64,000 nt of DNA from Candidatus Woesebacteria bacterium (GCA_013374835.1 CP055307.1:660768-724767), one strand, 5' to 3'. Positions 42,525 to 64,000 are shown, counted from the stretch's first letter. Notes: generated by a model not told the origin, from the sequence alone. Numbers and translations are program-made.

Positions 42525-42556
42525 GTCCTGAGCGTCTACCATTCCGCCACCTCGGC
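42471..42556 (-). tRNA. tRNA-Leu (anticodon TAA), long variable arm
   Basis: Reverse complement GCCGAGGTGGCGGAATGGTAGACGCTCAGGACTTAAAATCCTGTGTTCGATAATCGGACGTGTGGGTTCGAGTCCCACCCTCGGCA; class II cloverleaf. Confidence 0.85.
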
Positions 42557-48404: not shown

Positions 48405-48420
48405 TCACTGGGTACCATGG

Positions 48421-48490
48421 CCCGTGCTCAGTGGCTAGAGTGCTTCGTTTATATCGAAGAAGTCGTAGGTTCAAATTTTATCACCTTCAC
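48421..48490 (+). pseudogene. tRNA-like fragment: canonical acceptor 5' strand, D-arm and anticodon arm (loop TTTATAT, anticodon TAT), but no pairing 3' acceptor strand
   Basis: GGCCCGTGCTCAGTGGCTAGAGTGCTTCGTTTATATCGAAG...; the 3' part does not pair with the 5' acceptor strand. Confidence 0.4.
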
Positions 48491-48764
48491 GAAGTAGAAT
48501 GATGTAACCTCTGCACAGAATCCCGTTGAACGGACGAATACACAATGCAGTTTGACTTTTAAAGTATCCTGTAATATACTTTTTTGTACTTATGAGAATT
48601 TCATATGACGACCTATATTTATTGTATGTTGGCTTTTTTGGGATTGTGGTTTTAGCCAATATCGCCGCGATCCTTCTGAATAGACTTGTGGTTTTGTATT
48701 TTAAATTATTTGATCTACTTCTTAGGTTACCCAAAATTACTATAGCTTTATTTAACTTTAACAA

Positions 48765-49400: not shown

Positions 49401-49404
49401 TAAA

Positions 49405-50622: not shown

Positions 50623-51821
50623 AAAAAATATCTATAATTATTATTACTATTGTTCTACTTTTGATGTGTCTGGCTACTGTTGATGTTACCTATAATGCAT
50701 TAACTGGGGATAGTTTATATCTTAAGTTAAAAAGCAGGATCGATGAGCCGAGGGAAATCGAAAGAATTGGCAATTTTATAATTGGAGATAAGTGTAGCAA
50801 TGAAAAGGCTATTGAATTTCCAAAAGACTTAGCTGAGCCGCATCTTAAGAAACTTAGTCAATATCAAGATATTTGTGGTTCAAAAGTAACAAACTCCATG
50901 ATGGTTTTTACTGACATGCCAAAGGACGCTATTATTGCTCGGGAAAATGCCAAGAAACTTGCAGAAACTTTAAAACAATTTAACAAGTATGGGATAAAAC
51001 CGACTGTGATTGTTGAACCTATTTCTGAATGGGGTTTAATTGATTTTCAAGAATTTGGAACAGGTTTTTATGATAACTGGATTTTCACCTATTTTAATGA
51101 ACTCAAAAGACAGGGGGTAACTGATGAGATGATGGGGACTTGGGTTCCATTTCCAGAAGCAAATTTACCTTATTGGAATCACGCAAATGCGCAACCTGCT
51201 GACTTTGCTGGAATTGTTAATAGATATCTAAAAATTTTAAAGCAGCAGTTTCCTGCTGCAGAAGGTAGCATACTACTTAACTCTGCTACCTATGAAACTG
51301 ACGACTTTGAATGGACAAACGGAGAATATGTAAGCCTGAGACAGTATGTTGTTGGACTTGATAAAAATTTAATAGATTCTGTTGGGCTTCAAGGATTTCC
51401 TTGGGTTTCCCCCAAAGAGGCTACAAGTAATGCTGTGTTTAACCCAAGCGAATTTTTGAACCACTCATTGATAGCTGAAGCAGCTGACATTCTTGGGGTT
51501 AAAGACATTTGGCTTAATACTGGAACCTTTGGGGCTAAATATACTATTGATCCAGAAAATACGGTATATATATCAGCTGATAAACGAAAGGATTTACTTA
51601 ATGGGATATTGTCGGAGGCATTTAATTTAAAAAACCTTGGATATAATGTAACTATCAATATTTTCGCTCAAGACAAGTCTCTTCTTCCTGAAGCAACAGA
51701 CTGGAGTTATTTGCCTAATAGTTTTTCAAGAGATGAGCAAGCCCAAGTTGTCTTTGTTGAATTCGCTTCAAAAGCAAATAACAACAAGATAGGCTTATCA
51801 TTGTTTGATAGACAAGAGTAG
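50619..51821 (+). CDS. secreted/membrane-anchored hypothetical protein, possible polysaccharide hydrolase/modifying partner of the GT2 synthase
   Basis: 400 aa; N-terminal signal/TM; translationally coupled (4-nt overlap) to the GT2 gene; no motif recognised with confidence. Confidence 0.35.
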   Translation: MKKISIIIITIVLLLMCLATVDVTYNALTGDSLYLKLKSRIDEPREIERIGNFIIGDKCSNEKAIEFPKDLAEPHLKKLSQYQDICGSKVTNSMMVFTDMPKDAIIARENAKKLAETLKQFNKYGIKPTVIVEPISEWGLIDFQEFGTGFYDNWIFTYFNELKRQGVTDEMMGTWVPFPEANLPYWNHANAQPADFAGIVNRYLKILKQQFPAAEGSILLNSATYETDDFEWTNGEYVSLRQYVVGLDKNLIDSVGLQGFPWVSPKEATSNAVFNPSEFLNHSLIAEAADILGVKDIWLNTGTFGAKYTIDPENTVYISADKRKDLLNGILSEAFNLKNLGYNVTINIFAQDKSLLPEATDWSYLPNSFSRDEQAQVVFVEFASKANNNKIGLSLFDRQE

Positions 51822-51847
51822 GTGTTTAAGAGCATGAGCTTCGTGTA

Positions 51848-51984
51848 AGAATGGCTTCTTAGCAAAAAGAACTCAAAAAAATAAGTTTCAATAAAGAAAA
51901 TTTGCTATAATTATTAAGTACTTGCGGGTATAGTTGAAAGGTCCAACGACTCCCTTCCAAGGAGTAAATCGGGGTTCGATTCCC
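51848..51984 (+). repeat. 137-bp direct repeat, right copy (leads into the intact tRNA-Gly)
   Basis: See left copy. Confidence 0.85.
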
Positions 51985-51993: not shown

Positions 51994-52102
51994 TCCCAAA
52001 GTGGAAATCTATCTATAAATTGTTAGCCTAGCTAGATAGTATTGAAAAATCGCTCAAAGATAAATTTTCAAAAAATGGTGTTATGATGATAAAAAAGAGT
52101 TT

Positions 52103-54376
52103 TTGTGTTTGATGGGAAAAATAACCCTTAAAATTTTATTTGTTTCTCTCTTAATTTCCTCTTGGCTTTTTGCTGGATGGCCGAGAATTTGGCAAAAGCC
52201 ACCAATTCCACCGGCTATTCGTAAAGCTAAGGCAGCGCAGGTAACGATTGATAATTCGATACACACCACTTCTACAAGTCACCTCGATAGTTCACCATCT
52301 ACAGTGTTTATTTCAGAAACTAATGGTTATACTTTTTATCGCGATAGCGGAGGTCAATGTGTTTACAGCAAAACCACAAATGGCGGGACAAGCTGGGGAA
52401 CAGCAGTGACTGTTGATTCTCAGACTGACTGTTTGCAAATTGCTGTCTGGTATGATCGCTGGACACCGGGGGATAATACTGGAACGTTAATCCATTTTGT
52501 GACTTTTGATTCTGGTGATGATGATATTTGGTATGGCTATTTAGATATCTCAAACAATGACTCACTTGCAACTCCAATTAATATCACATCTGGATTAGGT
52601 TATTCGGGCACTCTAGCTGTTGGCACAAACCACACTACCATCACCAAAGGCACGGACGGCGTGCTCTATGCGGCTGTGTCGGATGCTAATGGTACGGGCA
52701 ATATAATGGCCCGTTGTAGCTCAACCTGCACCACAGCAACCAACTGGGCAGTGTCTCAACCAGCATCATGGACTGCTGGTAATGACTATTTAATCTTGGT
52801 ACCTATGCTCTCTGACAAAATAATGCTTCTCTGGTGGGATATTTCATTAGGATCAAATGATATTAAATATTCTATCTGGGATGGTTCTTCTTGGTCGACT
52901 TTTGCTGCCATTGATACAGCTTTAGATAATGCTATTTATGACGCATCATGGGGTGCTGCGATTGACCCATCAACTGGAGATGTGTATTTGGCTTACGCTG
53001 CAAACGCGACTACTTTAGGAACGGACGACAGTATTCGGGTAAAAAAATACACGAGTAGCTGGTCATCCTTGACCGATGTAGTAACCAATAGCGCCTGTGC
53101 CGGCGTTTCAAACTGCGGCATTACCGGAGTTAAAATAGCGATGGACACGACGAGCGGCGACTTGTATGTCCTTTATTCGGCACAGTCAACTCCTGGCACC
53201 GCCACAACTGCTAATGTCTATTTCAAAAAATCAACCGACGGCGGCTCAACCTGGAGTTCAGAATTGGGTCCGGTCTATTCCACAAACGACGATATTTACG
53301 GCGCGCGCTTGAGCTTGTCCGATTCCGCGGGCATCCAGAGAATTTACGCTACTTGGTACGCGGCAACACCGGACGATTTATTCGGCCGGCCGATTGCGCC
53401 CTTAACGTTCAACCAATCTGCGTATCGGTTTTTTAATAATTCAGACTCAACTGATGTTGGTACACCTTTGGCGGTACAGAACACAGAGGCAACTTTGGGC
53501 TCGACCAACGCGGCGTTTCGCTTGAGGATTCTCTTGCATGTCGGAGTTTCTGACTTGTTTACGAGTGAACAGAGTTTCAAACTCCAATTTGCTCAACAAT
53601 CGGGAACGTGCGACACCGGATTTTCCGGAGAGACCTACGCTGATGTTACGACCTCAACCGTGATTGCCTACAACGACAACGCCACGCCTGATGACGGCGA
53701 CAACTTGACTACGAACACCAACGACCCGACACACGACGTTGATACCATTGTCAATCAAACTTACGAAGAATTAAATAATTTTACCAACTCCGTGGCGGCT
53801 ATTAACTCGGGTCAGGACGGCAAATGGGATTTTTCTCTCAAAGACAATAACGCTCCAGCCGAAACCACTTATTGTTTGCGGGTGGTCAAATCCGACGGCA
53901 CGGTTCTGGATACTTACACCGTAATTCCGCAAGTTACCACCGCTAGTTCGGCAACAATTTCTGTTTCTGTTTCCGATGGAAACGTTGCTTATGGGATTAT
54001 TCCTAAGGACACCTCAAAAACTACTCTTGCTTCTGATATGCCACCTTCAGGGGATATGCAAACGGTTAGTTATGATACCAATGTAACGGTTAATATCAAC
54101 ATTAAGGGTAGCGACGCTTCGGGTGGGGGTTGTACTTGGGTATTGGCGGGTACCAATGGTAACGATCAATATGTTCATCAATTTTGCAACGCCACCGATA
54201 ATAATTGTTCAAGTCCGCCAACAAATTATACCGCTTTAACAAGCGGTTATCAGACATTAAAAAGCGGAGTTTCTGGTCAGGGAACAGTGGATTTCCATTT
54301 GCGAATAACTATGCCCACCGAATCAAGTTGTTATGGCGAACAATCAATTAATGTGACTATTCAAGCAGCTCAATAA
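52103..54376 (+). CDS. large secreted BNR/Asp-box repeat (sialidase-like beta-propeller) protein with a C-terminal WxL-like domain
   Basis: N-terminal signal/TM; multiple SxDxGxTW Asp-box motifs (TTNGGTSWG, STDGGSTWS); C-terminal ~150 aa homologous to ORF 55580-56125; 757 aa; middle third markedly GC-rich. Confidence 0.6.
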   Translation: MCLMGKITLKILFVSLLISSWLFAGWPRIWQKPPIPPAIRKAKAAQVTIDNSIHTTSTSHLDSSPSTVFISETNGYTFYRDSGGQCVYSKTTNGGTSWGTAVTVDSQTDCLQIAVWYDRWTPGDNTGTLIHFVTFDSGDDDIWYGYLDISNNDSLATPINITSGLGYSGTLAVGTNHTTITKGTDGVLYAAVSDANGTGNIMARCSSTCTTATNWAVSQPASWTAGNDYLILVPMLSDKIMLLWWDISLGSNDIKYSIWDGSSWSTFAAIDTALDNAIYDASWGAAIDPSTGDVYLAYAANATTLGTDDSIRVKKYTSSWSSLTDVVTNSACAGVSNCGITGVKIAMDTTSGDLYVLYSAQSTPGTATTANVYFKKSTDGGSTWSSELGPVYSTNDDIYGARLSLSDSAGIQRIYATWYAATPDDLFGRPIAPLTFNQSAYRFFNNSDSTDVGTPLAVQNTEATLGSTNAAFRLRILLHVGVSDLFTSEQSFKLQFAQQSGTCDTGFSGETYADVTTSTVIAYNDNATPDDGDNLTTNTNDPTHDVDTIVNQTYEELNNFTNSVAAINSGQDGKWDFSLKDNNAPAETTYCLRVVKSDGTVLDTYTVIPQVTTASSATISVSVSDGNVAYGIIPKDTSKTTLASDMPPSGDMQTVSYDTNVTVNINIKGSDASGGGCTWVLAGTNGNDQYVHQFCNATDNNCSSPPTNYTALTSGYQTLKSGVSGQGTVDFHLRITMPTESSCYGEQSINVTIQAAQ

Positions 54377-54389
54377 ATTTTTTATGACT

Positions 54390-55504
54390 TGACATGCACA
54401 GGATCAGATACATATTCGACATTGAGTAAGCATGGCAAGATCCACTGGGGTAAGCATGAAATCTGAGTTTGTAATGGGTAAAATCAAGAATTCCAAGGAG
54501 GTGATGAACTTGATTTCCCATCTGAGAAGATTTGATCAAAGTGAGGTGGCCCAGGAAAGACTAAGAATAATTAAGTATTATGCCAAACATGGAGAGGTTG
54601 CCACAAAAGAGGCCTTTGGAGTAGATCGCAAGCTTATCTTCACCTGGAAGAAAAGAGTACTAGAGAGAAAGAGTATCCAGGGGTTAGTTCCAGACTCCAC
54701 AGCTCCAAGGGGGGTAAGAAGGTCAGTAGTGGATCCTAAAATTGTTGATTATATTAAATCCCAAAGAGAGTTTGTCCCCAGAATGAGCAAGAAGAAGCTT
54801 AAACCCTTACTTGATGCATACTGCAGAGAAAATAATCTCCTAACAGTATCAGAGGCTACCATTGGGAGGATTATCTCAAGAAACAATCTATTTTATTACA
54901 AAACAGGCAGAGTATACCACAATCCAGCCTCTAAATGGGCTCAAAACAAGACTAAGAGCAAGAAGAACAGAATTAAATATGCACCCAAACCAGAAACTCT
55001 GGGATACATCCAAGCTGATACTGTGGAGAAAATCATTGATGGCATTAGGTGGTATATGTACCAGGCAATTGATGTGAAGGGAAAGTCTGCCCTTTCCCTG
55101 ACCTACAAACACTTAAATTCAGTTAACACTGTGGACTTCTTCAAGAAATTCCAAACACTTATTCCCTACAAAATCCACACAGTCCAGACTGACAATGGTA
55201 AAGAGTTTCTCAAACAATTCAGGGTTTACCTAGAAAAACAAAACATCAAACACATTTTTATATACCCCAGAATGTCCAAGATCCAGGGGGTGGTAGAGCG
55301 CTTCAACAGGACCATCCAGGAAGATTTTATTGACCCCAACCTCCACCTTATCTACAACCAGAAAGCTTACAATCAACGTCTTGCAAAGTACCTGATATAC
55401 TACAACTGCCAGAGAGTACATGAATCCCTAGGTAATATGACACCAACAGACTATCTCATCCAGGAAGGAGGTATGTCGAATATGTTACGATCCTGTACAT
55501 GACA
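54390..55504 (+). mobile_element. insertion sequence (~1.1 kb) with single DDE transposase and 32-33-bp imperfect terminal inverted repeats; IS481/IS30-like
   Basis: IRL TGACATGCACAGGATCAGATACATATTCGACAT (54390-54422) vs reverse complement of IRR TGTCATGTACAGGATCGTAACATATTCGACAT (55473-55504), ~28/33 matches; possible 4-bp ATGA flanking duplication. Confidence 0.75.
54432..55502 (+). CDS. DDE transposase (rve/integrase-core with N-terminal HTH)
   Basis: D (YIQADTVEK), D (VQTDNGKEF), E (ERFNRTIQEDF) triad; C-terminal YNCQRVHESLGNMTP; 356 aa. Confidence 0.8.
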   Translation: MARSTGVSMKSEFVMGKIKNSKEVMNLISHLRRFDQSEVAQERLRIIKYYAKHGEVATKEAFGVDRKLIFTWKKRVLERKSIQGLVPDSTAPRGVRRSVVDPKIVDYIKSQREFVPRMSKKKLKPLLDAYCRENNLLTVSEATIGRIISRNNLFYYKTGRVYHNPASKWAQNKTKSKKNRIKYAPKPETLGYIQADTVEKIIDGIRWYMYQAIDVKGKSALSLTYKHLNSVNTVDFFKKFQTLIPYKIHTVQTDNGKEFLKQFRVYLEKQNIKHIFIYPRMSKIQGVVERFNRTIQEDFIDPNLHLIYNQKAYNQRLAKYLIYYNCQRVHESLGNMTPTDYLIQEGGMSNMLRSCT

Positions 55505-55579
55505 ATGAAAAAAATATTTTAGTAAAGTTAAAAATAGCTAATATGAATAAAAATATGGATACCAAGGAAGCAAAATATT

Positions 55580-56125
55580 TTGAGAGGGGGTGAAGATGTG
55601 TTTAAAAGAATTTTAATATCTTTTGCTTTGATGATTCTTTTGGGTGGTAATTTTTGGTTTGAAGTAATGGCAGCTGACACCGGCGATGTGACGGCAACGG
55701 TAACAGTACAAAATGTAGCAATTACAGTTTCCGACGGTGCCATTGCCTATGGCACTTTAGCTGCTGGAGGAACCAGAAGTACATTACCAAGCGAGGCTAA
55801 TGACATGCAAGTTGCCACCAATACCGGTAATGTTCAAGAGGATTTTAACATTAAAGGATATAACGTTTCTTCTGGCTGTAGTTGGACACTTGGCGCAACC
55901 CAAGACTCTGAACAGTATTTTCATAAATTTTGTAATGATACGGCCAATGATTGTTCAACACCACCAACTAATTATAATGCCTTAACTACAAATTACCAAA
56001 CTCTAAGTTCAGCTGTACCGACTAGTGGTGCTAGAGATTTTCAATTACAGATTGGTGTTCCATCTTCAACTTCTTGTACATCTGAAGCAACCATAACAGT
56101 TACAGTTCAAGCTGTTGCTAGTTAA
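55580..56125 (+). CDS. secreted protein consisting of a WxL-like beta-sandwich domain (paralog of the BNR protein C-terminus)
   Basis: Signal peptide; ~40% identity to 54000-54376 translation (VSDG.IAYG ... NIKG...GCSWTL ... DQY.H.FCN.T.N.CS.PPTNY.ALT..YQTL); 181 aa. Confidence 0.5.
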   Translation: MRGGEDVFKRILISFALMILLGGNFWFEVMAADTGDVTATVTVQNVAITVSDGAIAYGTLAAGGTRSTLPSEANDMQVATNTGNVQEDFNIKGYNVSSGCSWTLGATQDSEQYFHKFCNDTANDCSTPPTNYNALTTNYQTLSSAVPTSGARDFQLQIGVPSSTSCTSEATITVTVQAVAS

Positions 56126-56165
56126 GATTATTGCCAAGATTTTATATGAGTGATAGAGTTTTATT

Positions 56166-56780
56166 ATGAGAAAGACTTTATTTTTTGTGATTTTTTTAAC
56201 TTTTTTCGTTTTTCCACTTCCGGTTTTTTCCAATCTTGGAGTAGGTGTTGCTACCGGAAAAATTGTGGTTGAAGACAAACTCAGACCAGGGATGATTTAT
56301 AATCTTCCTCCGTTGACAGTATTAAACACAGGCGACGAGGAAGCAGAATATGAGGCGGGTGTGGCTTATCACGAGAAGCAATCAGAACTTCAGCCGAATG
56401 AAAAATGGTTTGATTTTTCTCCAAAAAAATTCTTTCTTAAACCAGGTGAAAGTCAGAAAGTAGAAATCAAATTAAATTTACCAGTTAGAGCTGAACCCGG
56501 CGATTATTTCGCTTATTTGGAGGGTAAACCATTGAAAAAATCAGAATCAGGTAAATCAACAATAGGAATAGCTGCAGCGGCTAAGCTTTACTTTACTGTT
56601 TTACCGGCTAACCCAATTTTGGGAGCTTATTATAAAGCAGTGTCTCTTTGGAAAATTAACCAGCCCTGGTCCGCACGTTTTGCGATAATTATCGGAGTAG
56701 CTATTCTTTATTCCTTACTAAATAGATTCTTAGGATTTCAAATCAGCTTTGGCAAAAAAAAAGAAAAAAAGAATGAATGA
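56166..56780 (+). CDS. cell-surface protein with N-terminal signal peptide, Ig/PapD-like middle and C-terminal TM anchor with basic tail (CscA/DUF916-like architecture)
   Basis: 204 aa; signal; C-terminal TM IIIGVAILYSLL followed by KKKEKKNE. Confidence 0.35.
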   Translation: MRKTLFFVIFLTFFVFPLPVFSNLGVGVATGKIVVEDKLRPGMIYNLPPLTVLNTGDEEAEYEAGVAYHEKQSELQPNEKWFDFSPKKFFLKPGESQKVEIKLNLPVRAEPGDYFAYLEGKPLKKSESGKSTIGIAAAAKLYFTVLPANPILGAYYKAVSLWKINQPWSARFAIIIGVAILYSLLNRFLGFQISFGKKKEKKNE

Positions 56781-57409
56781 AATGGGTAGGATCATTTTTT
56801 TTTATACTTATTCTCGCCTTGCTTTTTAAAGGTTTTACCTTTGTTCAGGGGATTTCTTTTCAAGATTTAGAGGCAACCATTAAAATTAGTGTTTGTGGCG
56901 ACGGAAAAATTGAAGGCGATGAGAATTGCGAGGGAGATAATTTAAATAACCAAACTTGTGAAAGTTTAGGCTATGGTTCTGGTACCTTAACTTGCGATAT
57001 TGCCTGCAGTTTTGATACTTACGGCTGCTTACCCGCTCCAACAACTACTCCTACACCATTTTCTTCTACCCATCAAACTATTCCCCAATCTGACACAACC
57101 ACGTCTAGTTTAATTTCAAGTCTGGCACCAACACCCTTTTTTTATTCTACTCCGAAACGAACCGTCTCCCTTCCGCAGGCAATAATTCCTTTTGACACTA
57201 ATTGTGATAATATAATTGAAATAAGTGAACTTTTTGAAAGCGTCAGAGATTGGGTTGATAGCTGGATAATTAAAACGAGTAAATCAATTATTCGAAGAGA
57301 AACCAGCAAAAAAACAAGATGTGGTTTAATTCAAGATTGTGATTTAAACCGTGATAATGAGTGTAATATAGTCGATTTTTCAATACTTATGTATTACGTA
57401 AAGATATAA
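56777..57409 (+). CDS. secreted Cys-rich protein with Thr/Pro-rich linker and two dockerin-like Ca-binding-type repeats
   Basis: Signal peptide; CGDGKIEGDENCEGD; T/P/S linker; DTNCDNIIEISELFESVRDWV and DCDLNRDNECNIVDFSILMYYV resemble dockerin repeats; 210 aa. Confidence 0.35.
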   Translation: MKWVGSFFFILILALLFKGFTFVQGISFQDLEATIKISVCGDGKIEGDENCEGDNLNNQTCESLGYGSGTLTCDIACSFDTYGCLPAPTTTPTPFSSTHQTIPQSDTTTSSLISSLAPTPFFYSTPKRTVSLPQAIIPFDTNCDNIIEISELFESVRDWVDSWIIKTSKSIIRRETSKKTRCGLIQDCDLNRDNECNIVDFSILMYYVKI

Positions 57410-57410
57410 A

Positions 57411-58403
57411 ATGAAAAAACTCGCTATTTTCACTTTTCTTCTAAAGATTATTGGCTTTATTATTGCCTCTTGGTTTTTGGTTCATATCTTGTCTATTTTT
57501 GGAGTCTTTTTGGCATTAGCTTACCCTCTTTGGTATCTTTTTGGATTTAAGAGAATTCCTTGTTTATGGTGTCAAATTAAAAAGGCGCAATTTTGTACTT
57601 TTTCTCATAGTATTTTCGATTCTGGCTTGATTTTGGTTTTTACTTTGTTTTCTCTTGGCTTAGTTTTTGCTGAAGCAAAAATTATTTTCAAAATGGGTTT
57701 TCCACCAACAGCTAAAACAGTTTCTTTTGTTATTCCCACTAAGGGTCAATACCGATTAGGTGAAATCTTTCCAATGAAGATCGAAATATCTGGGGTTAAA
57801 ACCCCTATTAATGCCGTTCAAGCTGATTTGGGTTTTGACTCTAAAAAAATTCAGATTGTTGACATATCAACCAATGAATCGTTTGCAAATATATTTATTC
57901 AGAAAGAAATCAATAATGAAGTTGGTTATGCCCGATTGACCGGTGGTTTGCCAAATCCTGGTTTTTTTTCAGAACATGGAGTTTTTGGTTCTGTTTTTTT
58001 TAAGGGCATAACACCAGGAATTGTACAAATTAAGTTTCTGCCCTCTTCAATGGTTTTAGCAAATGACGGTCGAGGCAGTAATGTATTAAAGGATTTGGCA
58101 TCTGCTTCTTATTTGATTTTACCTGAAAAATTGTCTCAAGAGGAAGAAGAGATTCAAAAAAGTATTATTTTGAAACCAAATGTTTTGGGGGAAAGTAACG
58201 AAAACACTAAAATGAAGTTTTATGAAGAGAAAGGAGTTTTAGGAACGCAGGTTGTAAAAGACATCGAAAAAGTGAAAAAATTTGACTTAGGTAAAAAAAT
58301 ATTAGAAATTTTGGAAAAAATTGATCGGTTTATTTTATCTTTGTGGGCAAGGTTAACTGGATTAACGTCATCTTTTTTTACTTCGCGTTTCTACCGGGCA
58401 TAA
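57411..58403 (+). CDS. membrane protein with cohesin-like extracellular domain
   Basis: Three N-terminal TM helices, then VSFVIPTKGQYRLGEIFPMKIEISGVKTPINAVQADLGFDSKKIQIVDIS...GVFGSVFFKGITPGIVQIKF, a cohesin-like pattern; 330 aa. Confidence 0.35.
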   Translation: MKKLAIFTFLLKIIGFIIASWFLVHILSIFGVFLALAYPLWYLFGFKRIPCLWCQIKKAQFCTFSHSIFDSGLILVFTLFSLGLVFAEAKIIFKMGFPPTAKTVSFVIPTKGQYRLGEIFPMKIEISGVKTPINAVQADLGFDSKKIQIVDISTNESFANIFIQKEINNEVGYARLTGGLPNPGFFSEHGVFGSVFFKGITPGIVQIKFLPSSMVLANDGRGSNVLKDLASASYLILPEKLSQEEEEIQKSIILKPNVLGESNENTKMKFYEEKGVLGTQVVKDIEKVKKFDLGKKILEILEKIDRFILSLWARLTGLTSSFFTSRFYRA

Positions 58404-58516
58404 CTACAACAAACGGCGAACAAGAAGTTTTTTTAGTTTTTATCGCAAATATATAACAATTTTAAATAATTTTTGATAAAATAAGGTTTAGCAGTTTTTT
58501 CAGATATACTCAAAAT

Positions 58517-58591
58517 GCCCCGTTAGTTCAACGGATAGAACAAATCCCTTCTAAGGATTAGATGGGGGTTCGATTCCCTCACGGGGCACCA
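58517..58591 (+). tRNA. tRNA-Arg (anticodon TCT), CCA encoded
   Basis: GCCCCGTTAGTTCAACGGATAGAACAAATCCCTTCTAAGGATTAGATGGGGGTTCGATTCCCTCACGGGGCACCA. Confidence 0.85.
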
Positions 58592-58667
58592 GGGCCCGTA
58601 GCTCAGTGGCCAGAGCAGTCGGCTCTTAACCGAATGGTCGGAGGTTCGAATCCTCCCGGGCTCACCA
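58592..58667 (+). tRNA. tRNA-Lys (anticodon CTT), CCA encoded; starts directly after the CCA of tRNA-Arg
   Basis: GGGCCCGTAGCTCAGTGGCCAGAGCAGTCGGCTCTTAACCGAATGGTCGGAGGTTCGAATCCTCCCGGGCTCACCA. Confidence 0.8.
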
Positions 58668-58979
58668 TTTGGGAAATCGCGAAATCGTTGGATGCGGTGC
58701 CCCGACCCGCCGCGTTTCCGAAAAAGTCGGCTTGAACATTCCGCTGAAAGCGTAACAAAGAAAAACGCAAAAATTTTAAAGAACTTTTATTAAATTCAAA
58801 TGGCCACCCCGGTCGTACTCAAACCCTTTCAGATCTGCCCAAGGTGGCCATTAAAAAATCCGAAAGATAATTAGAGTACAGTTTTAATATACAAATTTTT
58901 CAAAGAAAAAAACAATAATTACTCTTCTCAAAAACTTTTGAAAAAAATATAATACACTTAAAATTATTGAAAAACATAT

Positions 58980-59294
58980 ATGAATACGCAACAAAAACAA
59001 TTGCTTAACTTTGTCCGCAAACTCAATCTGGATGTCCTTATGTTTGAGGAGTTGGAAGACCAAGATAGTCCACTAGTGAGTTTTATTAACTCATTTACTC
59101 TTAATTACATTGTTTCAGGACTTAATCAGTCAGAAAGACAAAAGTTTGTTGACTTGCTTGAACACGAGGCTGATGACGACAATGTATGGCAGTTTGTGAG
59201 AAAACACATTAAAAACTTTGATGAGAATTACGAAAAAGAGTTGGAAGGTAAATTAAAAGAAATAAAAATTCAGGCACTAAATAACAAGAAGTAA
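58980..59294 (+). CDS. hypothetical protein (islet-borne)
   Basis: 104-aa ORF; no motif. Confidence 0.3.
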   Translation: MNTQQKQLLNFVRKLNLDVLMFEELEDQDSPLVSFINSFTLNYIVSGLNQSERQKFVDLLEHEADDDNVWQFVRKHIKNFDENYEKELEGKLKEIKIQALNNKK

Positions 59295-59307
59295 CAACGA
59301 AAACATT

Positions 59308-62160
59308 ATGATAGACAATAACGAACAACTAGGTTTCTCTGAACAAGAAGTATTAAAAGAAAAGGCTTTAAAACTTTCTTCAAAATATACAGAGGTCATT
59401 AAGCGGATAACCGATACATCGGTTTACAAAGACGAAAATACTGGGCATTTCAGATTAACAACCGATGGTAGGCAAAATGCACACGAAATCTTTGATGACT
59501 TTTTTAAGCAGGCAGGTGGAAATCACCAACTTCTAAGACTAGCGGTGGACAGTGCTTATAAAACAGTTAAGTCTGATATTCAACAAAGCAGAGAAGAAGA
59601 AAAGCTTGATGAGCGTGGGTGGGCGTTATTAAGAACCGTACAAAGCATACAAGGAGTGAATACTTGGCAGGAAGCAAATGAAGTTTACTCAAGGATGGTT
59701 GGTCAAGCCGCCAAAGAGCAGGGCCTTTCCGCCGCTCGGCTATATCAAAAAGCAAAGGAAATAAGAGAACGACTTGAATCTGAGGGTATATCGGTTGATG
59801 AATATTTAAGAAAAGATAAAGAAAAATTTGATAATGTTCTCATAACCGAAACTGAAAAACTTGATAACGAAACAGTAACACTGCTAGGCAAAGCAAGAAA
59901 AAAGTTAGAGGAATTTAAACAAAAAGTTAGCGGTTGGCTTCCCAAAAAGCAGAAAGACAGACAACCCCAGATAGAAACCCGTGATATTACTCCAGAGGAA
60001 GAAGTTCCAGCTTTGCTTAGAAAAAAAATGACTCGCAGGCAATTCTTGAAATTTGCGGGGGCAACGGGAGCAGTAATTGTGCTGGAGCCTATCATTAGGG
60101 TGGGATTAGACCCTGAATTTCAAGCGGGACTTAGAGCTGCTTCTACCCGCCCTGAAATGCCAGGTAGTGGAGAGAGACACGAGGTTTCCTTGTCAACTTT
60201 ACTTGAAGTTTACAGAAAACATTTTAAGGGAAGGGAACATTTGCTCCCAGAAAGGGTTTGGGTAAGGACAGAAGGAGAAGGTGCAGATGAAAAACTAAGA
60301 GGGACAGGCACGCATCTTGGCATTCTTGCCAACCAATATTACGAGTCTGAAAAAAGAGGGGGGGAAGATTTTGACACCTACTACAAACGCTTCGTAGACA
60401 GCTTTCACGATTTGTCAGATACTGCTGGGCTTGACTTCATCACCCTAGTAACCAGTTTGCAAATTAGTGCTGAAAATATTGCTGGTTATGAAGAGCCCAA
60501 AGGCCCATCGAATATTGATGTTAATGTATCTCGTATTCAAGAAGTGGGAATAACTGCTGCACGAGCACTGGGACTAGAGTCTGCTATGGTTGAATCATTA
60601 GGTATAGGTGGACTTGCGTCTCAAATTAGAAACGAAGCTGAAAGGAGGGGTATTACAACGCCTCTGGAGGGTGCTATACCTAAGGAAGGCATAAGGCATT
60701 ACGATTTAATAAGATTAAGAGAACAGCCAACCACGGGTTTAATGGACTTCGAGCCAGGTGGTCGTGCAGAGGCTTTTATTTCGTTCCAAAACAATCCTTT
60801 AAGCGAAATGCTACGAAGAGAATATCCTCAAGTTTGCGAAAAATACGATAGAGCACACGAAAGGCGTGAGGAAGTTTCAGCAATAAGGGGAGAAATGGAG
60901 TCAGCTGCAAACGACTTTATTGAAAGACACGAAGACACTCTTAGACCATTTGCGGAAGGAAATGAAGAGGCTCTTAATGCAATCGGAATTTCACCCAATA
61001 TGGATTTGTGGCAACTAATAAACTATACAGATGTTTGGTATAAGGTCTCTGAAATACCAACTAACCCTGAATTTGCCTACCAACGAACAGTTGAATATAT
61101 AAAAAAAGAAGCGACTAAAGACCCACGAGCTTTCTATAAAAGATTATTTTCTCAGCAAATTAGAAATCCAAGATTTCTAAACTATTTAATGGATCACTCA
61201 ATCTCAAACAACGACCAAGAAGAAGGCTCGGCTGTATCCAATATCCAAAACCTTGTAACAGAATACGAGCAGAAGGCAAAGAATTTAAGGATTGCCCATC
61301 TTAATATTTTAGAAGCAGAAGGAAGGTTTGAATACGACAGCAGATTTCAACAAGCAACAAGTGTTTTAGTAACCAAAAAACTCTCTGATACAGCGGGAAA
61401 GTTTAACCCAAACAGCAGAGACAGCCTTGGCTGGCATATCTATAAAACTTGTGCAGCCAGAGAAATAGCCCCTATCCCCTTTTTGGTAGACGAACAGCCA
61501 TTCGCTTGCGACATAACAATTGACCCACCTTATGCACCAGAGGCAACCATAGAATCATTAGATACTTTTGCAAGGATGTTACAAGAAGCTGGGATACTTG
61601 AAACAGCTCCAGACAGAAATATAAATGCGTTCTATAGCACTATGGAGAAAATGTTCTGGCGAGATGGGGGTGTGTGGTTTGGAGCAGAACCCACAGAAGA
61701 AGAACAAACAAAATGGAAAAAAATATTAAACCACTTTAATGAAAAGTTGGCTAACCGTTTATTTTATGACTTTGCAGGACTACTTCACGATGAGCAAAAA
61801 ATGAGTGAGTTAAATAAAATAATGATGAACAAAGGACTTATTTCCGAACCCGCCAATAAAGACCCTTATAATTTTTTCACCCAGTTTGTTTATTTAGCAT
61901 TAAATAGTAGACATATGCGCCGAAATATTTCAGATGCTGATTGGAATGAAGCAGAGAGGTATTTTCAAGATAATATAATGCCCATGGTCATTACCAGAGA
62001 AGAAGTTTCACCTGGGGTTTTTAGGGAAAAATGGAACATAGGCTCTGCTGACTATCCTCCAATATTCCGTTCACAAGCAGTAATGTATAATTTCCTTATT
62101 GACCAAAACCCAGAATCACCATCATCAACACCATCAAGTGAGGTGCTAGGACACCATTAG
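59308..62160 (+). CDS. large hypothetical protein (ORFan) with internal Tat-like motif and TM helix
   Basis: 950 aa; residues ~243-265 MTRRQFLKFAGATGAVIVLEP resemble a Tat signal but are internal; no catalytic motif; GC content visibly above local background. Confidence 0.45.
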   Translation: MIDNNEQLGFSEQEVLKEKALKLSSKYTEVIKRITDTSVYKDENTGHFRLTTDGRQNAHEIFDDFFKQAGGNHQLLRLAVDSAYKTVKSDIQQSREEEKLDERGWALLRTVQSIQGVNTWQEANEVYSRMVGQAAKEQGLSAARLYQKAKEIRERLESEGISVDEYLRKDKEKFDNVLITETEKLDNETVTLLGKARKKLEEFKQKVSGWLPKKQKDRQPQIETRDITPEEEVPALLRKKMTRRQFLKFAGATGAVIVLEPIIRVGLDPEFQAGLRAASTRPEMPGSGERHEVSLSTLLEVYRKHFKGREHLLPERVWVRTEGEGADEKLRGTGTHLGILANQYYESEKRGGEDFDTYYKRFVDSFHDLSDTAGLDFITLVTSLQISAENIAGYEEPKGPSNIDVNVSRIQEVGITAARALGLESAMVESLGIGGLASQIRNEAERRGITTPLEGAIPKEGIRHYDLIRLREQPTTGLMDFEPGGRAEAFISFQNNPLSEMLRREYPQVCEKYDRAHERREEVSAIRGEMESAANDFIERHEDTLRPFAEGNEEALNAIGISPNMDLWQLINYTDVWYKVSEIPTNPEFAYQRTVEYIKKEATKDPRAFYKRLFSQQIRNPRFLNYLMDHSISNNDQEEGSAVSNIQNLVTEYEQKAKNLRIAHLNILEAEGRFEYDSRFQQATSVLVTKKLSDTAGKFNPNSRDSLGWHIYKTCAAREIAPIPFLVDEQPFACDITIDPPYAPEATIESLDTFARMLQEAGILETAPDRNINAFYSTMEKMFWRDGGVWFGAEPTEEEQTKWKKILNHFNEKLANRLFYDFAGLLHDEQKMSELNKIMMNKGLISEPANKDPYNFFTQFVYLALNSRHMRRNISDADWNEAERYFQDNIMPMVITREEVSPGVFREKWNIGSADYPPIFRSQAVMYNFLIDQNPESPSSTPSSEVLGHH

Positions 62161-62195
62161 GTTGAATTAACAGAAATTAAAATATAATCATAAAT

Positions 62196-62381
62196 ATGAA
62201 TAAGGACAAAAAAACAAAAGTAGACAAAACAGCTCTGACTACTGCTATGACCAAAATGAATATTTTTAGAGGAATAGAAGAAATCAAAAAAGTTTCCCGT
62301 TCAACATTAAGACTAGACAATAAAGATATAATTTATACTTTTATTGATATGGAGGGGGTAAATTTTAAGTTGAAAGAATAG
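62196..62381 (+). CDS. small hypothetical protein
   Basis: 61-aa ORF; weak. Confidence 0.2.
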   Translation: MNKDKKTKVDKTALTTAMTKMNIFRGIEEIKKVSRSTLRLDNKDIIYTFIDMEGVNFKLKE

Positions 62382-62467
62382 TTAGACATAGAATTTGAAC
62401 CCGAAAGAGTTAAACTGAAAATCACAAAACAGAGTTTTGTGGCTACAACAAAAATACCAAAGGAAAG

Positions 62468-62680
62468 ATGGGCTATATTCAATATGATAAGCCGTTGTAT
62501 TCTGCTAGATATGTTGACCCCAAGGAAAAGCCTTTCGTGGGCGAGGTCAGCATATTTGGTGATAATGTAGCATTTATCAACTTTTCGTCAAAACAAAAAA
62601 TGTATGCCGTTGTCATTGAAGACGCTTCTTTTGCCCAAACAATGAAGTCTTTTTATCTTCACTATGTTTGGAAATTGTAA
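62468..62680 (+). CDS. small hypothetical protein
   Basis: 70-aa ORF; weak. Confidence 0.2.
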   Translation: MGYIQYDKPLYSARYVDPKEKPFVGEVSIFGDNVAFINFSSKQKMYAVVIEDASFAQTMKSFYLHYVWKL

Positions 62681-62941
62681 AAAAAATAAGAGCTACAACT
62701 AGACACTCCCTATGGAGATCTTACTGCGAAACTGATAAAATATCTAGAAATATTCGCTCGTGAGAGCAGTACAGAAATTGAGGATTGGGAGTTTCAGTGT
62801 CCACGCACGGGCGGGTGGGGCAAGGACATTATAAAATCCTTTCCTTGCTCGAGCGAAGCAGAGAAAAAATGCGTTCGAATTTTTCCAAAAACGTGCACCG
62901 TGTTTAATGTGGTGATAGGTGCGTTCAACTTACCACCACAT

Positions 62942-63013
62942 GGGCCCATAGCTTAATAGTAGAACAACACCCTCTTAATGTGATGGTCGGAGGTTCGAAT
63001 CCTCCCGGGCTCA
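62942..63013 (+). pseudogene. tRNA-Lys-like degenerate copy: divergent 5' half (weak D and anticodon stems, acceptor mismatch) but 3' half identical to tRNA-Lys; right boundary of islet
   Basis: GGGCCCATAGCTTAATAGTAGAACAACACCCTCTTAATGTG + ATGGTCGGAGGTTCGAATCCTCCCGGGCTCAC; the 32-nt stretch 62983-63014 is identical to 58634-58665. Confidence 0.6.
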
Positions 63014-63077
63014 CAGCGGCGAGCAATGTTGCTTTTTTGATCTGTTTATGTCATTCTTTAGAGTGTAGGTTTAACTT

Positions 63078-63701
63078 ATGAAGTCTGAACCGCTGAGTAA
63101 AAGCATTATATTTGTAATTACTTTTTTTGCCCTTACACCAATTGCTCTTATTACGAGTTTATTTGCGCTTCTTTCAGTTTCTGACAAAGACAATTCCGAG
63201 GCAAATGTCTTGTCGTACGAAACACAAAACTTAATTAAAGTACCCCAAAATGGAGTACAGGTTTATGCATCGCTTCCGGATAATTCACCTGTTATTTATG
63301 CGATCCCTCAAACCGTAGATGCAAGAGGTGAATTGATAAGGCAGTATCTTATGCGGTATAATTCCCCGCTTATTCCTTATGCAAATTATTTGGTGGAGAT
63401 CTCTGATAAATACGGGCTTGATTTTAGACTTTTGACTGCTATTGCTCAGCAAGAATCTAATCTTTGCAAAAAGATACCCGCCGAAAGTTATAACTGCTGG
63501 GGCTGGGGGATTCATAGCGAAGGAACTCTTCGTTTTGAGTCTTTTGAACACGCTATTGAAACAGTCGCCCGGGGCATTAAAAGCGAATATATAGACAAGG
63601 GATTAATTAGCGTTGAGGAGATTATGTCCAAATGGATACCCCATTCACCCGAAGGCTCCTGGGCAAAGGGCGTTGCTGCTTTTATGGAGGAAATGGAATA
63701 G
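63078..63701 (+). CDS. membrane-anchored protein with SLT/glucosaminidase-like motif (possible peptidoglycan hydrolase)
   Basis: N-terminal TM; LLTAIAQQESNLC resembles the lytic transglycosylase / FlgJ-type ...AQ.ES... motif; 207 aa. Confidence 0.35.
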   Translation: MKSEPLSKSIIFVITFFALTPIALITSLFALLSVSDKDNSEANVLSYETQNLIKVPQNGVQVYASLPDNSPVIYAIPQTVDARGELIRQYLMRYNSPLIPYANYLVEISDKYGLDFRLLTAIAQQESNLCKKIPAESYNCWGWGIHSEGTLRFESFEHAIETVARGIKSEYIDKGLISVEEIMSKWIPHSPEGSWAKGVAAFMEEME

Positions 63702-63717
63702 AAAGAGATTTTTTGTT

Positions 63718-64000
63718 ATGTCTGCACATTATGACAAATTTGATTATCCTGCGTATTGGAAAGGACGCGATTATGAGCATGAGAGCGAGGTCGTTGCCAT
63801 TAGAGAATTTTTAAACAAGATTGAAAAAATTGAAAGGATTCTTGATCTTGGGTGTGGATTTGGTAGGCTTACCCCTTATTACTTTTACAGAGCAAAAAAA
63901 GTTTATCTTATAGATCCTTCATCTTCCCTCCTTAAAAAAGCTAAGAGCTTGTTAAAAAGCGAAAAAAAACGCATAAAGTTTGTCCAATCCAAGCTTGAAA
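63718..64000 (+). CDS. class I SAM-dependent methyltransferase (5' partial, runs off window)
   Basis: ATG at 63718; translation MSAHYDKFDYPAYWKGRDYEHE...ILDLGCGFGRL (motif I GxGxG); no stop before 64000. Confidence 0.55.
   Translation, partial: MSAHYDKFDYPAYWKGRDYEHESEVVAIREFLNKIEKIERILDLGCGFGRLTPYYFYRAKKVYLIDPSSSLLKKAKSLLKSEKKRIKFVQSKLE

What the first reader, a model, noticed from the sequence alone, without database searches (positions are those of the whole stretch)
58592..63014. 4.3-kb islet integrated at tRNA-Lys(CTT): 32-bp perfect direct repeat of the tRNA 3' end, degenerate tRNA-like right end, 950-aa ORFan, no integrase
58634-58665 and 62983-63014 are identical (ATGGTCGGAGGTTCGAATCCTCCCGGGCTCAC, variable loop to discriminator). 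That is the classic att core left by integrase-mediated insertion into a tRNA gene. The left copy is a well-folded tRNA-Lys. The right copy has a diverged 5' half that still looks tRNA-like. The enclosed DNA begins with a GC-rich inverted-repeat stretch (58680-58860, TGGCCACC...GGTGGCCA). It encodes a 104-aa protein, a 950-aa protein with no recognisable domains and an internal RRQFLKF Tat-like motif, and two tiny ORFs. No integrase was recognised, so this is a decayed or satellite-type element. The ORFan is the main cargo and is compositionally GC-richer than the host.
Basis: seen in the sequence. Interest (0 to 1): 0.65.

Follow-up and report, generated by a model that had tools for sequence, protein, structure and literature searches.

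The report
Integrase-less islet inserted in tRNA-Lys
A 4.35-kb piece of foreign DNA carrying a conserved gene pair of unknown function sits in the end of a lysine tRNA gene of an uncultivated (Gottesmanbacteria-like) bacterium; a close relative has the same site empty, so the insertion is real, but it is an ordinary decayed mobile-element remnant.

Summary
tRNA-Lys(CTT) is at 58592-58667. Its last 32 nt (58634-58665) recur exactly at 62983-63014, with none expected by chance. The right copy is a tRNA-like pseudogene (Rfam 46.5 bits; ARAGORN does not call it).

A close relative (L014; flanks 93.6-98.7% identical) has tRNA-Arg, tRNA-Lys and the 207-aa gene contiguous, so 4349 bp were inserted. 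The pseudo-tRNA 5' half came with the element. It resembles tRNA-Lys alleles of other Microgenomates (32-33/41) more than the resident gene (26/41).

There is no recombinase gene or remnant. The third gene is broken by a stop and a frameshift; it is intact (153 aa) in L009.

The 950-aa protein is not an orphan. It has 16 close homologues, about 50 family representatives and dN/dS of 0.12-0.15. With its 104-aa partner it occurs in eight other genomic contexts (nine loci counting a 1057-aa homologue without the partner). Two lie next to recombinases (a Xer-like tyrosine integrase; a large serine recombinase with a terminase).

The confident all-alpha model (pLDDT 83) matches nothing in PDB or BFVD. 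GC content is not distinctive.

Best reading: a decayed, CIME-like remnant of a tRNA-targeting integrative element. Integrase-free homologous recombination is the main rival. This is a new member of a known kind, of modest interest.

The parts
58517..58591 (+). Host tRNA-Arg(tct), abutting tRNA-Lys (left host flank)
   Evidence: ARAGORN. Rfam tRNA 70.3 bits. 98.7% identical to L014 across 58509-58665.
58592..58667 (+). Functional tRNA-Lys(ctt). It is the attL-side hybrid: host 5' part, shared core, then an element-supplied 3' tail that now encodes CCA.
   Evidence: ARAGORN. Rfam 68.1 bits. Identical to the L014 tRNA-Lys through position 58665. It reads CTCACCA here but CTCACAG in the empty site.
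58634..58665 (.). attL core: left copy of the 32-nt perfect direct repeat (variable loop, T arm, 3' acceptor strand, discriminator plus 1 nt)
   Evidence: 2 matches, 0 expected.
58666..58979 (+). Left non-coding arm of the islet. It contains a 10-bp hairpin (about 58800-58851) and a promoter-like site at 58925-58953 upstream of gene 1.
   Evidence: Absent from L014. No similarity to any other locus carrying the cassette. Fold z-score -0.78. TTCTCA-17-TATAAT promoter match. No recombinase remnant by tblastn.
58980..59294 (+). Gene 1: 104-aa acidic, helix-rich protein of unknown function that always precedes the long form of gene 2
   Evidence: ORF. 62-80% identical partners precede the large gene in L009, L005, L010 and L001. 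Equivalent small genes are present in L097, L098, L101 and L103. No Pfam, PHROG, PADLOC or NCBIfam hit.
59308..62160 (+). Gene 2: 950-aa protein. It has an N-terminal soluble helical domain (aa 1-187), a disordered linker, an RRQFLKF Tat-like motif with a hydrophobic helix (aa 240-267), and a large all-alpha domain (aa 260-945).
   Evidence: ORF. TAT_signal Pfam and TIGR01409 hits. 16 close homologues and 50 representatives. dN/dS 0.12-0.15. AlphaFold2 pLDDT 83.2 and pTM 0.72. No structural match in PDB or BFVD.
62196..62680 (+). Pseudogene 3: remains of a roughly 153-aa gene, broken by an in-frame TAG and a frameshift into 61-aa and 70-aa ORFs
   Evidence: The intact 153-aa orthologue in L009 aligns in two frames, at 62238-62474 and 62465-62677. 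DNA homology to L009 runs to 62679. Weak TrmB C-terminal hit, E = 0.012.
62681..62941 (+). Right non-coding arm of the islet, moderately structured, with a 13-bp hairpin just before the pseudo-tRNA
   Evidence: Absent from L014 and from all other cassette loci. Fold z-score -2.88. No motifs shared with the left arm beyond chance.
62942..63014 (+). attR: element-borne pseudo-tRNA-Lys(CTT) 5' half (62942-62982) joined to the right copy of the 32-nt core (62983-63014)
   Evidence: Rfam tRNA 46.5 bits with 4 broken pairs. Not called by ARAGORN. The 5' half is 26/41 identical to the resident tRNA-Lys but 32-33/41 to tRNA-Lys(CTT) of other Microgenomates. Three-way attL/attR/attB alignment.
63015..63033 (+). 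Native tRNA-Lys terminator-like hairpin with a T run, displaced 4.35 kb from the functional tRNA by the insertion (host DNA)
   Evidence: Terminator scan. The same sequence follows tRNA-Lys directly in L014.
63078..63701 (+). Host 207-aa gene (weak peptidoglycan-hydrolase/SLT-like hits), the right host flank used to find empty sites
   Evidence: ORF. Weak SLT, endolysin and peptidoglycan-hydrolase hits. 338 related loci, with L014 94% identical.

Best explanation
The segment 58666-63014 (4349 bp) is the decayed remnant of an integrative element that recombined with the 3' part of the chromosomal tRNA-Lys(CTT) gene.

The element carried an attP built from a tRNA-Lys-like sequence. That sequence was a foreign allele in its 5' half and identical to the host over the last 32 nt. 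One crossover inside that 32-nt block (variable loop, T arm or acceptor strand) had three results:
- It regenerated a working tRNA-Lys at the left end (attL), now with an element-supplied CCA tail.
- It left the element's tRNA-like 5' half fused to the host 3' sequence and terminator at the right end (attR).
- It placed the cargo between the two.

The cargo is a three-gene module:
- a 104-aa cytoplasmic protein;
- a 950-aa envelope protein, with a cytoplasmic N-domain, a Tat-like motif or anchor, and a large all-alpha domain of unknown activity, probably extracytoplasmic;
- a roughly 153-aa gene that is now dead.

The recombinase that did the job is no longer linked, so the islet cannot move on its own. 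It could move only if a matching integrase were supplied in trans (CIME-like).

Shown: the insertion, its exact borders, the foreign origin of the pseudo-tRNA half, the absence of a recombinase, the decay of gene 3, and the conservation and mobility of the cargo.
Inferred: that a site-specific integrase rather than RecA made the crossover, that genes were lost after integration, and the topology and envelope role of the 950-aa protein.
For: Insertion and borders:
- Empty site: L014 3187-3343 matches window 58509-58665 at 98.7%, and L014 3301-4329 matches window 62972-64000 at 93.6%. The two alignments overlap by exactly the 43-nt repeat.
- The compact tRNA-Arg/tRNA-Lys/207-aa-gene arrangement is also found in L019, L032, L042, L056 and L087.
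- The 32-nt repeat is perfect and non-random.
- The attR junction is confirmed in an independent assembly, L008, from another sample at 99.98% identity.

Foreign origin of the pseudo-tRNA half:
- Its 5' half is 32-33/41 identical to other lineages' tRNA-Lys alleles, against 26/41 to the resident gene.
- It has the CACC/(G)GTG anticodon-stem type found in L088 and L027.

Link to mobile elements:
- The same module, at 79-80% nucleotide identity, lies next to a Xer-like tyrosine integrase, a Fic protein and an excisionase-like ORF in L009.
- It also lies inside an element with a large serine recombinase, a terminase and ParB/methyltransferase genes beside tRNA-Ser in L005 and L006.
- The pair occurs in eight other contexts in all.

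Decay and conservation:
- Gene 3 carries a stop and a frameshift.
- No recombinase was found in or beside the islet.
- The cargo is under purifying selection, with dN/dS 0.12-0.15.
Against: - No integrase gene, fragment or arm-type repeat motif is detectable in either arm. Integrase involvement therefore rests on analogy only.
- The arms match nothing else retrieved, so no parent element with the same att site was found.
- The element-borne att is a full-length tRNA-like sequence.
- Elsewhere in the same tRNA array, a roughly 250-nt array duplication that includes non-tRNA upstream sequence flanks another islet. That pattern is as easily produced by homologous recombination.
- The attL junction itself is seen only in this assembly. 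L008 starts 39 nt beyond it.
Confidence: 0.65

Rival explanations
1. Integrase-free Campbell-type insertion. A circular (or circularised, taken-up) DNA molecule carrying the cassette plus a captured tRNA-Lys gene from another Microgenomates lineage recombined by RecA-dependent homologous recombination within the 32-43 nt of shared tRNA sequence. The islet never had its own integrase.
For: - The element-borne att is a complete tRNA-Lys-like sequence of a foreign allele type, not just a short core.
- There is no integrase remnant and no arm-site repeats.
- In the same array, a second islet (48482-51893) is flanked by a duplication of the whole Gly-Arg-Lys array plus 30 nt of upstream non-tRNA DNA. 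That is more homology than an att core needs.
- The gene pair sits in many contexts without any linked recombinase (L001, L098, L103).
Against: - 32 nt of perfect identity is near the lower limit for efficient RecA recombination (established knowledge from E. coli, not tested here).
- An identity block that runs from inside the tRNA to its 3' end is the classic signature of tyrosine-integrase att sites.
- Close relatives of the cassette do ride on integrase- or recombinase-bearing elements.
- None of the 80 related loci shows another tRNA 3'-end duplication.
Confidence: 0.22
2. The islet is ancestral at this site. L014 and other relatives lost it by deletion between the two tRNA-derived repeats.
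For: Recombination between 32-nt direct repeats would regenerate exactly the L014 sequence, so the two directions cannot be told apart from one pair of genomes.
Against: - At least six loci, spanning 47-94% identity of the flanking protein, have tRNA-Lys directly upstream of the 207-aa gene, and none carries the cassette there.
- The cassette's nearest relatives (80%) sit at unrelated sites.
- The pseudo-tRNA half is a foreign allele.
Confidence: 0.05
3. Local tandem duplication of tRNA-Lys, followed by unrelated insertion between the copies and decay of the downstream copy. No att-type recombination was involved.
For: tRNA arrays do duplicate, and a decayed copy of the whole array exists at 48314-48490.
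Against: - The divergence is step-like: 15 of 41 positions differ in the 5' half, but 0 of 32 in the 3' half.
- The changes in the anticodon stem are largely compensatory and match alleles of other lineages.
- The single tRNA-Lys of L014 is followed by the sequence that follows the right copy here.
Confidence: 0.03
4. Assembly artefact: a chimeric join at a repeated tRNA sequence between the chromosome and an unrelated contig or episome.
For: The repeat is about the size of common assembly k-mers. The independent contig L008 ends 39 nt from attL.
Against: L008 reads continuously from the left arm through the cassette, the right arm, the pseudo-tRNA and the core into the 207-aa gene and 7 kb beyond. 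The attR junction, which exists only in the integrated state, is therefore independently assembled.
Confidence: 0.03

Closest known systems
[quoted passage not shown]
   Same: It is flanked by attL- and attR-like direct repeats at the 3' end of a tRNA gene. It has no integrase, excisionase or transfer genes. It shows internal gene decay, and related cargo occurs on recombinase-bearing elements.
   Different: - CIMEs are defined in Firmicutes in relation to a known parent ICE whose integrase can mobilise them. No parent element or matching integrase is known here, and mobilisation cannot be tested.
- The host is an uncultivated CPR (Gottesmanbacteria-like) bacterium, where conjugation systems are not documented in these data.
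tRNA/tmRNA-gene genomic islands as catalogued by Islander/TIGER (background in PMC9580842)
   Same: Insertion in the 3' part of a tRNA gene, regeneration of an intact tRNA, a displaced tRNA fragment at the far end, and sporadic presence among relatives.
   Different: Those catalogues require an integrase gene and a size of at least 5 kb. This islet is 4.35 kb and has no integrase, so such tools would miss it.
Temperate phages and elements whose attP contains extended tRNA-gene sequence, for example Haemophilus phage HP1 (recalled from the literature, not checked here)
   Same: The element-borne att site is a long tRNA-derived sequence rather than a minimal core. The crossover lies inside the tRNA gene, and the gene is reconstituted from element sequence.
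   Different: Those elements encode their own tyrosine integrase and are complete phages. Here only cargo remains.
Twin-arginine (Tat) signal peptides, including internal Tat motifs of Sec/Tat dual-targeted actinobacterial Rieske proteins (recalled from the literature)
   Same: The T-R-R-x-F-L-K motif is followed by a weakly hydrophobic stretch, and it passes the Pfam and TIGRFAM cut-offs. Short family members carry it at the N-terminus like ordinary Tat substrates.
   Different: In this protein the motif lies 240 residues from the N-terminus, behind a soluble domain with no preceding membrane helices. Its use by Tat is unproven, and the presence of Tat machinery in this genome was not examined.

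Membership tests
tRNA-integrated genomic island / integrative element | Located at the 3' part of a tRNA gene, with the tRNA gene reconstituted | tested here: met
   tRNA-Lys(ctt) at 58592-58667 is intact (ARAGORN; Rfam 68.1 bits). The inserted DNA starts within or after its last 32 nt.
tRNA-integrated genomic island / integrative element | Flanking direct repeats made of the tRNA 3' segment (attL/attR) | tested here: met
   A 32-nt perfect repeat, or 43 nt at 91%.
tRNA-integrated genomic island / integrative element | Empty site (attB) in related genomes | tested here: met
   L014, plus the compact arrangement in L019, L032, L042, L056 and L087.
tRNA-integrated genomic island / integrative element | Encodes its own integrase or recombinase | tested here: not met
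   No Pfam or PHROG recombinase hit in any islet ORF. tblastn with the L009 tyrosine integrase and the L005 serine recombinase finds nothing in 58400-63100.
tRNA-integrated genomic island / integrative element | Excision to a circular form (attP junction) | not testable with these tools
   No reads are available. Exact attP-specific and core patterns were not found in IMG/VR.
CIME (cis-mobilizable element) | Retains attL and attR | tested here: met
   Both 32-nt cores are perfect.
CIME (cis-mobilizable element) | Lacks integration and transfer genes | tested here: met
CIME (cis-mobilizable element) | Derived by decay from an autonomous integrative element | tested here: inconclusive
   Gene 3 is pseudogenised, and related cassettes lie on recombinase-bearing elements. 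However, no parent element with the same arms or att site was found.
CIME (cis-mobilizable element) | Can be excised or mobilised by a cognate integrase supplied in trans | not testable with these tools
   This requires read-level or experimental data.
Tat-exported protein (for the 950-aa product) | S/T-R-R-x-F-L-K motif followed by a hydrophobic region | tested here: met
   Pfam TAT_signal 24.8 bits (cut-off 22.7) at aa 240-258. TIGR01409 19.8 bits (cut-off 16.7).
Tat-exported protein (for the 950-aa product) | Signal located at the N-terminus | tested here: not met
   The motif starts at residue 242. It is N-terminal (residues 5-55) only in short family members.
Tat-exported protein (for the 950-aa product) | TatA/TatC machinery encoded by the organism | not tested
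   Only the 64-kb window is available.
Phage satellite (PICI/P4-like) | Integrase plus replication, regulation or packaging-hijack genes | tested here: not met
   None of the three genes hits any PHROG with a known function, or any Pfam replication or packaging family.

The most novel reading that the evidence does not exclude
The small-plus-large gene pair may be a self-contained, frequently relocating module of Gottesmanbacteria-like CPR genomes. The pair occurs in nine distinct contexts counting this site, and a more distant 1057-aa homologue lies inside a 16S-23S spacer.

On this reading its spread would not depend on a linked recombinase. It would enter chromosomes through tRNA-gene homology that it carries along (integrase-free Campbell insertion after DNA uptake).

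Its 950-aa product would found a new all-alpha fold of envelope proteins with an internal Tat-like export or anchor signal. Such a protein could plausibly remodel the cell surface of an episymbiont.
Probability: 0.15. Interest if true: 0.6.

Novelty: new member of a known kind. Interest (0 to 1): 0.35.

Why it matters
The case gives a base-pair-resolved example of horizontal gene insertion in a CPR (Gottesmanbacteria-like) genome, with attL, attR and attB sequences all in hand.

At 4.35 kb and with no integrase, the islet falls below the criteria of standard island finders. Such finders would under-count this class in small, streamlined genomes.

It also shows that one tRNA array (Phe-Gly-Arg-Lys) has taken up three separate blocks of envelope-related genes relative to a relative whose flanks are about 93-94% identical. 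That marks the array as a plasticity hotspot.

The cargo family (about 50 representatives) is confidently modelled but matches no known fold, is under purifying selection, and often has an internal Tat-like motif. It is a reasonable target for structural or functional work on CPR cell surfaces.

None of this overturns current understanding.

Tried and rejected
- A profile search with a 46-sequence alignment in the word-indexed protein database returned the same 16 proteins.
- The exact 32-mer in one genome per species (GTDB) hit only an unrelated tRNA-Lys(ttt) in a 'Gammaproteobacteria' MAG. It was uninformative.
- Four IMG/VR scans found nothing: the protein, the 32-mer, the pseudo-tRNA junction and a left-arm motif.
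- A PDB sequence profile matched only the Tat signals of unrelated enzymes.
- PADLOC, NCBIfam and PHROGs gave nothing for the three cassette proteins.
- The 187-aa and 167-aa genes upstream of the short homologue in L094 were tested as split-off equivalents of the N-domain and the 104-aa protein. There is no similarity.
- A search for arm-type repeats shared by the two arms found none beyond chance.
- A possible third tRNA-like fragment at 62904-62926 is not significant (33 of 500 shuffles).
- The short contigs L101 and L103 (4.4-4.8 kb) were checked as possible circular or att-bounded copies. They have no terminal overlap and no tRNA.
- The 'DPPYA' motif recalls N6-methyltransferase motif IV. 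I rejected that reading because the modelled region is coil within an all-alpha domain with no Rossmann fold.
- The large serine recombinase at 40983-42524 was rejected as the agent. Serine recombinases do not leave 32-nt duplications, and this one is 17 kb away beside another tRNA.

Full report
**1. The observation**

ARAGORN finds twelve tRNA genes in the window. The last two are tRNA-Arg(tct) at 58517-58591 and tRNA-Lys(ctt) at 58592-58667, which abut each other.

The 32-mer ATGGTCGGAGGTTCGAATCCTCCCGGGCTCAC occurs at 58634-58665 and again at 62983-63014. None of 100 dinucleotide shuffles gave any match, even with three mismatches allowed. The repeat finder extends the pair to 43 nt at 91% identity, taking in the anticodon loop CTCTTAA.

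The right copy is part of a 72-nt tRNA-like sequence at 62942-63013. It scores 46.5 bits on the Rfam tRNA model (gathering score 29). It has broken pairs in the acceptor, D and anticodon stems, and ARAGORN does not call it.

The sequence-level observation is therefore correct.

**2. Is it an insertion?**

I used the 207-aa gene to the right (63078-63701) to collect 80 related loci from metagenomes, then scanned them for tRNAs and for the window's proteins.

The closest locus is L014 (JGI Ga0265297_10026874; 207-aa protein 94% identical). It carries tRNA-Leu, Leu, Val, Phe, Gly(tcc), Arg(tct) and Lys(ctt). Its tRNA-Lys ends 64 nt before the 207-aa gene, which is exactly where the pseudo-tRNA ends in the window.

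- L014 3187-3343 matches window 58509-58665 at 98.7%.
- L014 3301-4329 matches window 62972-64000 at 93.6%.
- The two alignments overlap by the 43-nt repeat.

The three-way alignment shows that the L014 tRNA-Lys equals the left copy and the L014 downstream sequence equals the DNA after the right copy. This is an attB / attL / attR relationship, and 4349 bp are extra in the window.

The same compact arrangement (tRNA-Lys immediately upstream of the 207-aa gene) is seen in L019, L032, L042, L056 and L087, whose flanking protein is only 47-58% identical. The empty state is therefore ancestral.

An independent assembly from another sample (L008, Logan SRR6825876) is 99.98% identical from 58705 through the cassette, the pseudo-tRNA and the core into the 207-aa gene and beyond. 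The attR junction is therefore not an assembly artefact.

**3. Anatomy of the islet**

- DNA similarity to every other locus carrying the large gene is confined to 58973-62680.
- The left arm (58666-58979) and the right arm (62681-62941) are unique.
- The left arm holds a 10-bp hairpin but is not unusually structured overall (z = -0.78). It contains a promoter-like TTCTCA-17-TATAAT site 27 nt before gene 1.
- The right arm is moderately structured (z = -2.88).
- The arms share no repeated motifs beyond chance.
- The native terminator-like hairpin of tRNA-Lys (63015-63033) has stayed with attR.
- The functional tRNA-Lys now reads ...CTCACCA, with the CCA supplied by the element. The empty site reads ...CTCACAG.

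The two 'tiny ORFs' are pieces of one gene. L009 has an intact 153-aa orthologue, which aligns to the window in two frames (62238-62474 and 62465-62677). The window has an in-frame TAG where L009 reads KLKSWLD. Gene 3 is therefore a pseudogene.

No ORF of the islet hits a recombinase family. tblastn with the recombinases of related elements finds nothing in the islet.

**4. Origin of the pseudo-tRNA**

- Its 5' 41 nt are only 26/41 identical to the resident tRNA-Lys.
- They are 32-33/41 identical to tRNA-Lys(CTT) genes of other Microgenomates (L070, L016, L025, L088, L027).
- Its anticodon stem (CAC.../...GTG) is the allele type seen in L088 and L027/L029, with pairing largely kept.
- The D arm differs from the common AGCTCAATGGTAGAGCA by C>T and G>A changes.

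The divergence is step-like: 15 of 41 positions differ in the 5' half and 0 of 32 in the 3' half. So the right-end tRNA-like half is not a decayed duplicate of the host gene. It is element-borne and derives from another lineage's tRNA-Lys.

Because the 3' strand of each anticodon stem matches its own 5' strand, the crossover lay inside the 32-nt block rather than in the anticodon loop.

**5. The cargo**

The 950-aa protein is not an orphan.

- It has 16 homologues at 52-98% identity, including a Candidatus Gottesmanbacteria protein (P0008).
- An exhaustive HMMER scan of 1.84 billion representatives finds 50 clusters, 40 of them at E <= 1e-10. The conserved core is residues about 238-780.
- dN/dS against five orthologues is 0.12-0.15.

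Short members (725-756 aa) start with a normal N-terminal twin-arginine signal. In this protein and about a third of the family, the RRxFLK motif lies 115-352 residues from the N-terminus, behind unrelated N-terminal extensions. One of those extensions is a GT2 glycosyltransferase domain.

AlphaFold2 with the 46-sequence alignment gives pLDDT 83.2 and pTM 0.72. The model has a helical N-domain (1-187), a disordered linker that includes the RR motif, and a large all-alpha domain (260-945) mostly above pLDDT 90.

Nothing significant matched the protein or its model:
- the PDB sequence profile;
- PADLOC, NCBIfam and PHROGs.

From the Tat-like or anchor segment, the GT2-fused relative and the envelope-type neighbours of a chromosomal homologue (L096), I infer a membrane-anchored or exported envelope protein. 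Its cytoplasmic N-domain may work with the co-inherited 104-aa protein. This is inference. The activity is unknown.

**6. Mobility of the cargo**

The gene pair (small gene plus long form) is found in eight other contexts:
- between Hydrolase_3 and a methyltransferase in Gottesmanbacteria GW2011 (L001-L004);
- inside an element with a large serine recombinase, a terminase and ParB/methyltransferases beside tRNA-Ser(gga) (L005-L007);
- directly after a Xer-like tyrosine integrase and a SoFic-like Fic protein, and before an excisionase-like ORF (L009);
- beside tRNA-Ile (L010);
- between an M29 peptidase and ddl, near HigB/ImmA/resolvase genes (L097);
- between yceG and rpoB (L098);
- after Sua5/TsaE (L103);
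- on a short contig with no informative flanks (L101).

A 1057-aa homologue without the small partner gene lies in a 16S-23S spacer (L100). None of these loci has tRNA-derived flanking repeats. The module is a recurrent passenger of mobile DNA, and the att-type borders are specific to this locus.

**7. Mechanism and rivals**

The simplest account is classical. An element whose attP mimicked tRNA-Lys integrated by one crossover in the shared 32 nt. Its recombination genes and other genes were then lost, and gene 3 is dying. What remains is a CIME-like remnant (definition in PMC5704250).

I rate this at 0.65, because no trace of an integrase or of arm sites remains.

The main rival, at 0.22, is integrase-free homologous recombination through a captured tRNA gene. 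Three points lend it weight:
- The element-borne sequence is a full-length tRNA.
- The array contains a second case: window 48314-48490 is a decayed copy of the entire upstream-plus-Gly-Arg-Lys array and flanks another 3.4-kb block.
- Many copies of the cassette have no linked recombinase.

Ancestral presence with loss in relatives, local tandem duplication, and misassembly are each unlikely, for the reasons given under the rival explanations.

**8. Comparison and verdict**

The locus meets the positional, repeat and empty-site criteria of tRNA-gene genomic islands but fails the integrase criterion. It meets the sequence-level criteria of a CIME, but its derivation and mobilisability are untested.

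The labels 'ORFan', 'GC-richer' (38.5% against 37.3%) and 'satellite' are not.

This is a new member of a known kind in an under-studied phylum. It has a well-resolved empty site and a conserved cargo family of unknown function whose model matched nothing in the PDB or BFVD. Interest is 0.35.

Noticed in passing
window 48314-48490: A decayed copy of the whole array (30 nt upstream plus tRNA-Gly(tcc), tRNA-Arg(tct) and tRNA-Lys(ctt)). A 78-nt deletion fuses the Gly 5' part to the Arg 3' end at their shared T-arm (chimera 48344-48418). It is followed by a heavily mutated Lys-like copy (48419-48481). Rfam scores are 33.5 and 31.3 bits, and ARAGORN calls neither.
   Followed up: partly
window 48482-51893 and 51997-58508: Two further blocks are absent from L014, where the seven tRNAs are contiguous. 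The first is 3.4 kb (211-aa protein, GT2 glycosyltransferase, 400-aa protein), between the decayed array copy and tRNA-Gly(tcc). The second is 6.5 kb, between tRNA-Gly(tcc) and tRNA-Arg(tct). It holds a 757-aa BNR-like surface protein, an rve-type DDE transposase at 54432-55502 and four small secreted proteins, including a cohesin-like one. It has no att-type duplication. This tRNA array is an insertion hotspot.
   Followed up: partly
window 40983-42524 (+) and 42470-42556 (-): A large serine recombinase (Resolvase, Recombinase and Zn_ribbon_recom domains; 33% identical to the L005 recombinase). The 3' end of its ORF overlaps tRNA-Leu(taa) on the opposite strand. It may mark another integrated element.
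   Followed up: no
L100 1-11451: A 1057-aa member of the cargo family lies between the 16S and 23S rRNA genes of an rRNA operon, together with two tRNAs and several small ORFs. A group I intron match (57 bits) spans the 3' end of the 16S match.
   Followed up: no
window 59308-62160 (aa 240-258) and family members P0014, P0018, P0023, P0031, P0036, P0039, P0042, P0050: The RRxFLK Tat-like motif is internal (residues 115-352) in about a third of the family and N-terminal in others. One member (P0059) has a GT2 domain as its N-terminal extension. Close relatives end in a conserved Ser-rich ...(I/V)LGHH C-terminus. A near-invariant DPPYA motif lies in a coil of the all-alpha domain.
   Followed up: partly
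L008 604-3457 (= window 59308-62160): In a 99.98% identical contig from another sample, the 950-aa gene is called as two overlapping genes (355 and 614 aa). This implies a single-base indel, either real polymorphism or an assembly error.
   Followed up: no
L009 3446-5579 and 9407-9478: The closest cassette relative sits after a Xer-like tyrosine integrase and a Fic/MerR protein that matches the SoFic and PDC-S04 defence models. It is followed by the start of an excisionase-like HTH ORF. This looks like a candidate integrative element of a related CPR bacterium, truncated by the contig ends.
   Followed up: partly
L016, L017, L029, L040, L055, L071, L021, L090 (regions between tRNA-Arg, tRNA-Lys and the 207-aa gene): In other Microgenomates the same inter-tRNA gaps hold unrelated single genes, with no integrase and no tRNA-end duplications. 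One example is a 430-480-aa secreted protein between tRNA-Arg(tct) and tRNA-Lys(ctt) in several loci.
   Followed up: partly
window 62904-62926: A short stretch just upstream of the pseudo-tRNA resembles its anticodon-to-T-arm segment (TTAATGTGGTGATAGGTGCGTTC). The match is not significant (33 of 500 shuffles score as well), so it is not claimed as an older att remnant.
   Followed up: yes
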